64,000 nt of DNA from Candidatus Hodarchaeota archaeon (GCA_048887225.1 JBHLJY010000006.1:64001-128000); one strand, 5' to 3'; counted from the stretch's first letter, positions 26,839 through 28,191 are shown. Numbers and translations: made by a program. The notes: generated from the letters alone by a model not told the origin.

Positions 26839-28191
26839 GGCTTCTTCAACCCCTCTTCATTTGCCATTACAATAACGGCTGCATAAGCGGCTCCTGGACC
26901 TCCGATCGAATGAGCAATGGACCGACCTTTTTCAATTGTGACTTGGTGTTTGCCAGCATCTCCTCTAATCTGAAGAGCGGCCTCTCCTGTGCTCATTATA
27001 CCAGTCGCGCCCACAGCATGTCCACAGCCAATTAAGCCTCCCGAAGGACAGCATGGCAATTCACCATTTAGCCAAGGACCTTCGCCGGGCTTTTCGAAAG
27101 AATTTTCAATCCAAGGACCGCCTTCTCCGAATGGTACAAAGCCTAATTCTTCATAAGAAATTACTTCTTGACCGCTAAACGCATCGTGGAGCTCTGCAAC
27201 ATCGATTTGTTCCTTAATCTTGTTGTAGTCGAGCCCTGCCATTTTATAAGCTGCTTTAGCAGCTTCAATGTTTGAATAAAGCCGACCAATGCTCTCTCTG
27301 TTTCCGATAAAACAATCTGTATTTGCAGCAGCGACTCCGGTTATCCATGTAGGCTTTTCCACGCCGAGTTCTTTTACTTTTTGTTCGTTTGCAAGGATTA
27401 ATGCGGCAGAAGCCTCGGAATAAAGACAGCAATCCAGGAGTTTGAAGGGATAACAGATAATTCTTGAGTACATAACGTCTTCGACGGTTACCTTCATTGG
27501 CGATTGAGCCTTTGGGTTGAGCAGAGCGTTCCCATGATTTTTAATGGAAACCATAGCCATATAAGCCAAAAGTTGAAAATATTCAACTGATTGTTTGCTC
27601 TTCGGTCGGGTTTCCAAATTCTTTGTAATGTGCATTTACCATAGAAACATATGAAGATGCCGCCATCATGCCCATAGGATATTTACGGAATATCGCGAAA
27701 TGCGAATTAAATTCTTTCATAAGTCATATCCGCAGAATAGGCAATGGCATTTAATACTTCTGGTGTTGTAACTCCTGTTTGCTAACGCTTTAAACTAAAT
27801 ATTTACAAGATTCGTCATAACAGTCGTTACATTTCTCCAAACCAATGCAGAGACACAAATCCGACAATCCAGATGCAACTTCAGCATAAGCCATTCTCAC
27901 AGTATAACCTCCCGTTGCTCCGCCCGACGCAATTCTCGTGCCAGGTTTGTCATTCATGCCAAGATAACTATTAGTAAATATATCGGGCATGAATTGGCGT
28001 TCAAAAAGCTCATTATAAATTCCATAAACCGTGGACTGCAAATCTTTATGTATAATCTCTGCCCCGTTTTTATTTGCATCATCAAGAGCCAATCTAGTGG
28101 CATCAAACGCCAGCTCAAAATACGTTTTATCAAGATACCTTGCTCTAAAAGGAGTAATGCCTACTCCGATTATCGCAACTCTATTTGGCAT
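26835..28191 (-). CDS. Intron-containing SCP-x-type thiolase-fold protein; exons 28191-27811, 27781-27716, 27681-27595, 27560-26835; 419 aa after splicing
   Basis: Joined frame reads ...LEKCNDCYDE|QTGVTTPEVLNAIAYSADMTYE|YPMGMMAASSYVSMVNAHYKEFGNPTEEQ|MAMVSIKNHGNALLNP..., collinear with the six paralogs in the window; HDAF and GHAVG motifs present. Confidence 0.9.
27561..27594 (-). other. BHB mRNA intron 3 (34 nt)
   Basis: GAGC AA^A CAA...UUG GCUU AU^A: helix GAGC/GCUU, inner stem AGUUGAA/UUCAACU; removal restores the frame. Confidence 0.86.
27682..27715 (-). other. BHB mRNA intron 2 (34 nt)
   Basis: UAUG AA^A GAAU...AUUC CGUA AA^U: helix UAUG/CGUA; removal restores the frame. Confidence 0.86.
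27782..27810 (-). other. BHB mRNA intron 1 (29 nt)
   Basis: GACG AA^U CUU...AAG CGUU AG^C: 4-bp helix GACG/CGUU with two 3-nt bulges; removal restores the frame. Confidence 0.88.

What the first reader, a model, noticed from the sequence alone, without database searches (positions are those of the whole stretch)
27561..27594. Intron 3: BHB with 7-bp perfect inner stem, 34 nt
The RNA reads GAGC AA^A CAA UC AGUUGAA UAUU UUCAACU U UUG GCUU AU^A. It has helix GAGC/GCUU and stems CAA/UUG and AGUUGAA/UUCAACU. Splicing restores the thiolase motif PTEEQ|MAMVSIKN, compared with TEEQAAKIVVKN and TEEDLARVVVQN in the paralogs. The first 25 aa of the predicted 266-aa ORF are therefore an artefact.
Basis: seen in the sequence. 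Interest (0 to 1): 0.8.

Follow-up and report, generated by a model that had tools for sequence, protein, structure and literature searches.

The report
tRNA-type mini-intron in Asgard thiolase gene
A 34-base hairpin insert, the third of three, breaks a well-conserved thiolase-like gene of a Loki-type Asgard archaeon and has the shape that the tRNA-splicing enzymes cut, so the mRNA very probably has to be spliced; the papers I could search show this inside an archaeal coding sequence for only one gene (cbf5), and no RNA data exist to prove it here.

Summary
Removing exactly these 34 nt joins ...PTEEQ to MAMVSIKN..., which is collinear with more than 100 uninterrupted orthologues from Promethearchaeota (Asgard) genomes.

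With inserts 1 (29 nt) and 2 (34 nt) also removed, the gene reads as one 419-aa ORF. That ORF is as conserved as the intact orthologues (dN/dS about 0.02). The 22- and 29-codon micro-exons differ from orthologues almost only at synonymous sites.

Orthologues carry 29-35 nt inserts at 8 or more positions. Of 39 distinct inserts that could be placed, 37 obey the same bulge-helix-bulge (BHB) geometry.

The genome encodes a crenarchaeal-type catalytic EndA subunit with the broad-specificity loop, a non-catalytic paralogue, and RtcB. The RtcB gene is itself split by such an insert.

This exact intron position was found only in this lineage. An identical allele lies in a second sample and a roughly 93% relative in another study. 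Same-genus relatives have an intron 8 nt downstream or none. The 3' half of the motif is relaxed, and no RNA evidence exists.

The scan had already noted introns 1 and 2 of this gene and similar inserts in other genes of this genome.

Verdict: a BHB pre-mRNA intron, a new member of the cbf5 kind, confidence about 0.85.

The parts
27561..27594 (-). Intron 3 (34 nt). Its first nucleotide (A27594) is the third base of the 5' bulge. Its last two nucleotides (A27562, U27561) are the first two bases of the 3' bulge. An in-frame UGA stop lies inside it.
27597..27600 (-). 5' strand of the central 4-bp helix H (GAGC). It lies in exon 3 and ends 2 nt before the 5' splice site.
27563..27566 (-). 3' strand of helix H (GCUU). 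It lies inside the intron and ends 2 nt before the 3' splice site.
27571..27588 (-). Inner hairpin: perfect 7-bp stem AGUUGAA/UUCAACU with loop UAUU. The h' helix CAA/UUG (27591-27593 and 27567-27569) lies just outside it.
27595..27681 (-). Exon 3 (87 nt, 29 codons: YPMGMMAASSYVSMVNAHYKEFGNPTEEQ).
   Evidence: Against L115 it shows 18 nt differences but only 1 aa difference.
26835..27560 (-). Exon 4 (726 nt including the stop). It starts with the conserved Met178 codon and carries the Thiolase_C_1 domain.
27682..27715 (-). Intron 2 (34 nt): UAUG AA^A ... CGUA AA^U. The same position and about 88% of the sequence are shared with L001-L003.
27716..27781 (-). Exon 2 (66 nt, 22 codons: QTGVTTPEVLNAIAYSADMTYE). 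It has no start codon of its own.
   Evidence: Against L115 it shows 11 nt differences and 0 aa differences.
27782..27810 (-). Intron 1 (29 nt): GACG AA^U ... CGUU AG^C.
27811..28191 (-). Exon 1 (381 nt, 127 codons).
26341..26838 (-). Downstream gene whose start overlaps the thiolase stop: a DUF35/ChsH2-type zinc-ribbon plus OB-fold protein, the usual partner of archaeal thiolases.

Best explanation
The 34 nt at 27561-27594 are an archaeal BHB (tRNA-type) intron inside a pre-mRNA. They form the third of three introns in one thiolase-family gene of a Promethearchaeota (Loki-type Asgard) archaeon.

The proposed mechanism is as follows. The transcript folds so that exon bases GAGC pair with intron bases GCUU. 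This presents a 3-nt bulge on each side of the helix. The heteromeric splicing endonuclease EndA cuts between bulge nucleotides 2 and 3 at both sites. RtcB then joins ...GAG CAA to AUG GCU.... The 34-nt intron is released, probably as a circle.

Only after all three excisions can the 419-aa protein be translated, because each insert carries an in-frame stop and has a length not divisible by 3.

What is shown: the sequence, the fold geometry, collinearity with orthologues, purifying selection on the exons, and the presence of the enzymes' genes. What is inferred: that cutting and ligation actually occur in the cell.
For: 1. Exact frame restoration. The spliced CDS is one ORF of 1260 nt (419 aa). 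Its junctions YDE|QTG, TYE|YPMG and EEQ|MAM show no indel against uninterrupted orthologues of 84-92% identity.

2. The gene is not decaying.
- It departs from only 4 of 292 columns invariant among 11 orthologues, all by conservative changes. Intact orthologues depart from 0-6.
- dN/dS is 0.024-0.033 at dS of 1.5 or more.
- Micro-exon 2 has 11 nt changes and 0 aa changes. Micro-exon 3 has 18 nt changes and 1 aa change against L115.

3. Geometry.
- The protein-restoring cut sites coincide with the BHB rule for all three inserts.
- Across about 140 orthologous loci, 43 distinct inserts of 29-35 nt lie at 8 or more positions. Of the 39 that could be placed, 37 have a 4/4 helix in the canonical register. 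Off-register controls give 0-8.
- The background rate of the motif is about 0.3% per placement.

4. Covariation in sister introns.
- At the intron-1 site, exon GACG pairs with intron CGUU in some loci and exon GAUG with intron CAUU in others. This is a C-G to U-A double change across the exon/intron border.
- In the intron 8 nt downstream, an A-U pair in L001 is a U-A pair in L004.

5. The insert is real DNA, present or absent in relatives.
- An identical contig spans introns 2 and 3 in a second sample (X2).
- A contig of another study carries both at full length, with 46 differences in 676 nt and no gaps (X4).
- Other contigs join exactly at the predicted exon-exon junctions.

6. Machinery.
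- One EndA paralogue aligns end to end with the Aeropyrum pernix catalytic alpha subunit. The alignment covers the K-P-R of the Crenarchaea-specific loop and the catalytic His.
- That loop confers broad substrate specificity (PMC3241643). Asgard EndA was classed as (alpha-beta)2 with this loop (PMC5829648).
- A second paralogue has Ser at the catalytic His position.
- RtcB is present.

7. Other genes of the same genome carry the same kind of insert. These are RtcB itself and uL11.
Against: - There is no RNA, circular-intron or peptide evidence of any kind.
- The 3' half of the motif is relaxed. The strict outer helix is 1 bp. In the best fold, AUA faces AA in an internal loop.
- The fold is not more stable than shuffles (z = -1.53).
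- This exact intron position was found in no other genome or metagenome locus among about 140. No covariation therefore supports this particular intron; support is by analogy with its neighbours.
- The genome has several thiolase paralogues, so loss of this copy might be tolerated.
- The pairwise dN/dS values cannot exclude a very recent inactivation.
- No Asgard EndA has been assayed.
Confidence: 0.85

Rival explanations
1. Recently inactivated pseudogene. The three inserts are disabling insertions (for example small hairpin-forming mobile or duplicated DNA) and no functional protein is made from this copy.
For: Each insert brings an in-frame stop or a frameshift. Thiolase paralogues exist in the genome. 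Intron 3 is unique to this lineage. Gene callers annotate only fragments; a cluster of 227 truncated ORFs corresponds to exon 1.
Against: The exons carry no other damage. Conservation equals that of intact orthologues. Micro-exons change almost only synonymously. All three inserts, and 37 of 39 in orthologues of many genera, sit in exact BHB register, which random disabling insertions would not do. A roughly 93% diverged relative keeps introns 2 and 3 without indels. Single-copy essential genes (uL11, RtcB) carry the same kind of insert.
Confidence: 0.07
2. Split gene. Exon 4 is translated on its own from its AUG (27560) as a separate C-terminal polypeptide. This polypeptide works alone or assembles with the exon-1 product. 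The insert is merely spacer.
For: Exon 4 begins exactly with AUG. An AT-rich stretch lies upstream. Gene callers predict such ORFs (P0002 of 241 aa).
Against: That Met is the conserved Met178 of every uninterrupted orthologue, so the AUG is not a special feature. Exons 2 and 3 would be lost, yet they are under strong protein-level constraint and cannot be translated on their own. Exon 2 follows a stop and has no start codon. In relatives the neighbouring intron lies 8 nt downstream, in the middle of a codon, where no start codon follows.
Confidence: 0.03
3. Translational bypass. The ribosome hops over the 34-nt hairpin, as over the T4 gene 60 gap or the mitochondrial byp elements, without RNA cutting.
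For: The size (about 30-50 nt), a hairpin, and a stop codon just after the take-off site resemble bypass elements (own knowledge of gene 60 and byps).
Against: There are no matching take-off and landing codons: CAA versus UAU at intron 3, GAA versus UAG at intron 1, and GAA versus AAA at intron 2. The conserved feature across 37 of 39 inserts is a 4-bp exon-intron helix with two 3-nt bulges. Bypassing does not need this, and EndA does.
Confidence: 0.02
4. Assembly artefact, or an insert removed at the DNA level.
For: Contigs lacking each insert exist in the same metagenomes.
Against: Those insert-free contigs differ at many other positions, so they come from relatives, not from the same strain. 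Independent assemblies of two samples reproduce the insert exactly, and a third study holds a diverged copy.
Confidence: 0.01

Closest known systems
BHB intron in the cbf5 (pseudouridine synthase) pre-mRNA of Crenarchaeota (Watanabe 2002; Yoshinari 2006; Yokobori 2009, PMC2738675)
   Same: A short intron inside a protein-coding sequence. A BHB, often relaxed, lies at the exon-intron borders. It is linked to a hetero-oligomeric EndA of broad specificity. It is gained and lost among close relatives.
   Different: Here there is another phylum (Asgard) and a metabolic gene. There are three introns in one gene, with micro-exons of 66 and 87 nt. Intron positions vary, at 8 or more sites in one orthologue group. 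PMC2738675 states that splicing had not been confirmed for any gene other than cbf5. My searches found no later report for Asgard mRNAs.
BHB introns of Asgard tRNA genes (preprint 10.64898/2026.10.13.758758; PMC5829648)
   Same: Same presumed enzymes, same motif, same size range, and many independent gains. This genome is also rich in tRNA introns (15 of 32 ARAGORN calls).
   Different: The substrate is an mRNA with no tRNA body to help recognition. The preprint does not treat coding genes.
Unconventional HAC1/XBP1 mRNA splicing and SOS splicing of transposon hairpins in animals (PMC12779559)
   Same: Non-spliceosomal, RNA-structure-directed excision from an mRNA, followed by RtcB ligation. 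In SOS splicing a hairpin-forming insertion is removed so that an interrupted gene still works.
   Different: The endonuclease differs. It is IRE1 for XBP1. It is unknown, and not TSEN, for SOS splicing. These systems are not homologous in their recognition step.
Translational bypass elements (T4 gene 60; mitochondrial byps)
   Same: A coding gap of about 30-50 nt with a hairpin and a stop just after the 5' border.
   Different: The gap is not removed from the RNA, and bypass requires matched take-off and landing codons, which are absent here.

Membership tests
Archaeal BHB (EndA/RtcB-spliced) intron | Central 4-bp helix formed between the two intron borders | tested here: met
   GAGC (27600-27597) pairs with GCUU (27566-27563), including one G-U pair. 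It is found in the MFE fold and in the register test.
Archaeal BHB (EndA/RtcB-spliced) intron | Two 3-nt bulges on opposite strands flanking that helix | tested here: inconclusive
   The 5' bulge AAA is clean. The 3' AUA lies in a 2x3 internal loop opposite AA. This is a relaxed (H-B-h') motif of the kind that broad-specificity EndA cuts (PMC3241643, PMC5829648). It is not a strict hBHBh'.
Archaeal BHB (EndA/RtcB-spliced) intron | Cleavage at symmetric positions in the bulges yields the functional joined RNA | tested here: met
   Cuts after bulge nucleotide 2 on both sides give ...EEQ|MAM..., collinear with orthologues. Only 2 placements restore the protein, and one is the BHB placement. This is an in silico result only.
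Archaeal BHB (EndA/RtcB-spliced) intron | Flanking helices h' (intron) and h (exon-exon) | tested here: inconclusive
   The h' helix is present (CAA/UUG plus a 7-bp stem). The strict h helix is 1 bp; otherwise CCG/UGG forms after the internal loop.
Archaeal BHB (EndA/RtcB-spliced) intron | The host encodes a splicing endonuclease able to cut relaxed motifs outside tRNA | tested here: met
   There are two EndA paralogues. One aligns over its full length with the A. pernix alpha subunit, including the loop K-P-R (K44/R46) and the catalytic His. The other has Ser at the His position. Enzyme activity was not tested.
Archaeal BHB (EndA/RtcB-spliced) intron | The host encodes the 3'-phosphate RNA ligase RtcB | tested here: met
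   PF01139 matches at 484 bits on C13. The gene is itself interrupted by a 29-nt BHB-type insert.
Archaeal BHB (EndA/RtcB-spliced) intron | The intron is absent from mature RNA, or a circular intron is detectable | not testable with these tools
   No RNA run holds this sequence.
Thiolase superfamily (archaeal thiolase paired with a DUF35/ChsH2-like protein) | Thiolase domains and a neighbouring zinc-ribbon/OB-fold partner gene | tested here: met
   Exon 4 matches PF22691 Thiolase_C_1 (E = 1.5e-24). Full-length orthologues carry PF00108, PF02803 and PF22691. The downstream ORF matches PF12172 and, below its Pfam cut-off, PF01796. The substrate of the enzyme was not addressed.
Translational bypass element | Identical or synonymous take-off and landing codons flanking the gap | tested here: not met
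   CAA versus UAU at this insert. The other two inserts also have no match.

The most novel reading that the evidence does not exclude
Intron 3 may be one visible event in a genome-wide, fast-evolving population of EndA/RtcB-spliced mini-introns in the protein-coding genes of Promethearchaeota. These introns are gained, lost and possibly slid by a few nucleotides between close relatives. Intron 3 lies 8 nt upstream of the intron that same-genus genomes carry and shares collinear sequence blocks with it. Such inserts also interrupt single-copy core genes, including uL11 and the ligase RtcB itself. Under this reading, obligatory protein-enzyme mRNA splicing, with a possible autoregulatory loop through RtcB, would be a normal layer of gene expression in the closest prokaryotic relatives of eukaryotes.
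Probability: 0.5. Interest if true: 0.9.

Novelty: new member of a known kind. Interest (0 to 1): 0.75.

Why it matters
Interrupted protein-coding genes whose mRNA must be spliced are regarded as a eukaryotic hallmark. In archaea the papers I could search document this for one gene only (cbf5).

A conserved metabolic gene of an Asgard archaeon that needs three excisions, with exons as short as 66 nt, would show that the tRNA-splicing enzymes also service mRNAs in the lineage nearest to eukaryotes.

It also has a practical consequence. Gene callers split such genes into 'hypothetical' fragments; one cluster alone holds 227 truncated products. In one case a caller read a stop codon as an amino acid. 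Asgard proteomes and metabolic reconstructions are therefore systematically damaged.

The intron is small and its cut sites are precisely predicted, which makes it directly testable with a synthetic substrate.

Tried and rejected
- RNA evidence: no RNA holder is listed for this stretch, so expression and splicing could not be examined.
- Rfam and tRNA scans of the window found nothing.
- A genome-wide census by BHB motif plus ORF-joining was not specific. A decoy pairing rule gave more hits than real pairing, and junctions between adjacent genes dominate. I claim no genome-wide count.
- A word search with the artefactual N-terminus of the 266-aa ORF, meant to fish out relatives with the same intron position, found nothing. 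Exact look-ups of that ORF and of the exon-3 ORF were also negative.
- Comparing bulge sequences with this genome's tRNA introns failed, because ARAGORN's intron borders are too imprecise.
- Common origin of intron 3 and the intron 8 nt downstream: alignment z-scores are 2.2-3.3, and 6 of the 9 best-scoring inserts are of that type. I treat this only as a hint of common origin or sliding.
- The sequence of the roughly 93% relative in run X4 could not be read, so covariation within intron 3 itself remains untested.
- Group I, group II or self-splicing introns were rejected because of size (34 nt).

Full report
**What is there**

On the minus strand of the window a thiolase-family gene runs from 28191 to 26835. 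It does not read as one ORF. The frame is open for 127 codons (...CNDCYDE) and stops. It resumes in another frame for 22 codons (QTGVTT...MTYE), again for 29 codons (YPMG...NPTEEQ), and then for 241 codons (MAMVSIKN... to the stop).

The finding concerns the third break, 27561-27594.
- GAGC/GCUU;
- a 3-nt bulge AAA;
- CAA/UUG;
- a perfect 7-bp stem with loop UAUU.

On the 3' side AUA is unpaired opposite two A residues, and a CCG/UGG helix follows. The motif is therefore canonical on its 5' half and relaxed on its 3' half. Its free energy is not exceptional (z = -1.53).

**Organism and machinery**

The window lies in a 3.27-Mb, 31% G+C assembly of 49 contigs. The nearest proteins and loci are from Promethearchaeota, Promethearchaeia and Hermodarchaeota MAGs, that is Loki-type Asgard archaea.

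The genome has two EndA paralogues of about 200 aa.
- One aligns end to end with the catalytic alpha subunit of the Aeropyrum pernix heterotetramer (3P1Z_B, E = 5e-35). The alignment includes the K-P-R of the Crenarchaea-specific loop and the catalytic His. PMC3241643 shows that this loop, and K44 in it, give broad substrate specificity. PMC5829648 reports the loop in Asgard EndA.
- The other paralogue has Ser where the Methanocaldococcus jannaschii enzyme has the catalytic His, so it looks like a structural beta subunit.

RtcB is present.

**The break is an insert, and removing it restores the protein**

Uninterrupted orthologues of 416-419 aa and 84-92% identity read ...CYDEQTG......MTYEYPMG... 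and ...PTEEQMA[Y/M/L]VS[V/I]KN.... The window's four pieces align to them with no residue missing or added once three inserts are removed:
- 29 nt at 27782-27810;
- 34 nt at 27682-27715;
- 34 nt at 27561-27594.

The joined CDS is 1260 nt and forms one ORF of 419 aa.

**The gene is under selection**

The joined protein departs from only 4 of 292 columns invariant among 11 orthologues, all by conservative changes. The orthologues themselves depart from 0-6.

Pairwise dN/dS is 0.024-0.033 at saturating dS. The two micro-exons cannot be translated without splicing. Against L115 they show 11 nt changes with 0 aa changes, and 18 nt changes with 1 aa change.

These values average over both lineages, so they cannot exclude a very recent inactivation. 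The absence of any other lesion argues against one. So does the persistence of introns 2 and 3, without indels, in a contig that differs at 46 of 676 positions (run X4, another study).

**The geometry is more than chance**

For each of the three inserts the last six exon bases are a 4-nt helix strand plus two bulge bases. The last six intron bases are the complementary strand plus two bulge bases.

I collected orthologous loci from GTDB genomes (80), relatives, metagenomes (46 usable) and contigs of truncated ORFs. Together they hold 43 distinct inserts of 29-35 nt at 8 or more positions.

I restricted each insert to the placements that restore a product made only of residues seen in 106 insert-free sequences. 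Under that restriction, 37 of the 39 inserts that could be placed show a 4/4 helix in the canonical register. Off-register controls give 0-8. In the genome at large, about 0.3% of arbitrary placements show such a helix plus a flanking helix.

Sister introns covary:
- At the intron-1 site, exon GACG pairs with intron CGUU in some loci and exon GAUG with intron CAUU in others.
- In the h' stem of the intron 8 nt downstream of ours, an A-U pair in one locus is a U-A pair in another.

**Distribution of this particular intron**

The position EEQ|MAM was found only in the window's own lineage. An identical contig lies in a second sample of the same study, and the roughly 93% contig lies in another study.

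Within the same genus, two genomes carry a 30-nt intron 8 nt downstream, inside the next-but-one codon, and three carry none.

In a gene tree the window's gene is sister (support 0.994) to insert-free orthologues. The next clade out holds genes with introns at the intron-1, intron-2 and downstream positions.

Intron 3 shares collinear blocks with the downstream-type introns, and 6 of its 9 best-scoring matches among all inserts are of that type (z = 2.2-3.3). I treat this as a hint of common origin with a shift of the splice sites, not as a result.

Contigs of relatives in four metagenomes join exactly at the predicted exon-exon junctions. For example, loose ends read ...PTEEQMAYVS.

**Rivals**

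- A pseudogene does not explain the BHB register of nearly all inserts, the intact exons, or the same inserts in single-copy core genes.
- Independent translation from the AUG of exon 4 is unlikely. That Met is conserved in all intact orthologues, and exons 2 and 3 are constrained at the protein level.
- Translational bypass lacks matched take-off and landing codons.
- An assembly artefact is excluded by independent assemblies.

**Comparison with what is known**

The closest known case is the cbf5 pre-mRNA intron of Crenarchaeota. PMC2738675 states that splicing had not been confirmed for any other archaeal protein gene.

My full-text searches found no report of BHB introns in Asgard coding genes. 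A 2026 preprint on Asgard tRNA introns does not treat them. The library does not hold most subscription journals, so this absence is not proof.

Functionally the case resembles XBP1/HAC1 splicing and the SOS splicing of transposon hairpins. Both are sealed by RtcB (PMC12779559), but they use other endonucleases.

**Relation to earlier notes of this scan**

Other agents had already reported introns 1 and 2 of this gene and similar inserts in uL11, lsrF, a kinase and an acyltransferase. I re-derived introns 1 and 2 independently. I checked the second uL11 insert. I add the RtcB insert, the register test, the selection tests, and the finding that intron 3's position is lineage-specific.

**Verdict**

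This is a new member of the known kind 'BHB intron in an archaeal pre-mRNA'. It is of high interest because of the lineage, the multiplicity of introns and their evolutionary mobility. Proof at the RNA level is still missing.

Noticed in passing
G000:C13:33458-33486 (outside the window): The RtcB ligase gene is itself split by a 29-nt insert with a textbook BHB: UUGG AU^A, an 8-bp stem CAUAAAAG/CUUUUAUG, then CCAA AA^A. Removing it restores ...PGGVGY|DINCG.... If it is spliced, the ligase mRNA needs ligase to mature, which would be a possible feedback loop.
   Followed up: partly
G000:C4:65567-65594 and a second insert about 60 nt upstream (outside the window): The only uL11 gene has its N-terminal domain broken. 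The 28-nt insert reads GGCU GU^A, an 8-bp stem, then GGCU UA^A, and restores GPAV|GPTG. A second insert lies between ...LVTGG and NASGGPPIGPA.
   Followed up: partly
L001:765-800, L004:318-350, L089, L086, L087, L033, L142, L203 (orthologous loci): Many genera carry a 29-30 nt intron 8 nt downstream of intron 3 (after AUGGCUU[A/U], codon phase 2). Its central helix is GGCU/GGCU. The window's genome has none there. This may be a case of intron sliding.
   Followed up: partly
Orthologous loci L051, L064, L199-L209 compared with the window at 27782-27810: At the intron-1 site the synonymous exon change GAC to GAU (Asp) is matched by CGUU to CAUU in the intron. This covariation crosses the exon-intron border. 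Other loci (L004, L075, L089, L107) have the intron 3 nt further downstream, after the Gln codon.
   Followed up: yes
L004 (ENA contig k141_367396), gene 211-1044: The public gene call translates only 'with TAG=Q'. An in-frame 30-nt intron containing UAG was read through, so an intron was mistaken for a stop-codon reassignment.
   Followed up: no
Protein cluster of window:27793-28191:-: The exon-1 ORF belongs to a 90%-identity cluster of 227 products of 127-157 aa. These are truncated calls ending at the intron-1 or intron-2 site in many samples. Several are named 'hypothetical protein'.
   Followed up: partly
L026 (DATKTP010000175.1): A contig filed under 'Candidatus Deferrimicrobium sp.' (a bacterium) encodes this Promethearchaeota thiolase at 92% identity. 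It is probably a mis-binned contig.
   Followed up: no
window 2500-12600, both strands: There is a cluster of at least six further thiolase-like genes (tblastn hits at about 2563-4404, 6065-7964 and 10684-12510). They carry the motifs TEEQCSSVVVKN, TEEQAAKIVVKN and TEEDLARVVVQN. I did not check them for inserts.
   Followed up: no
whole genome G000: ARAGORN finds only 32 tRNA genes, 15 of them with introns, in an assembly rated 98% complete. Many tRNA genes are probably missed because they are multiply interrupted.
   Followed up: no
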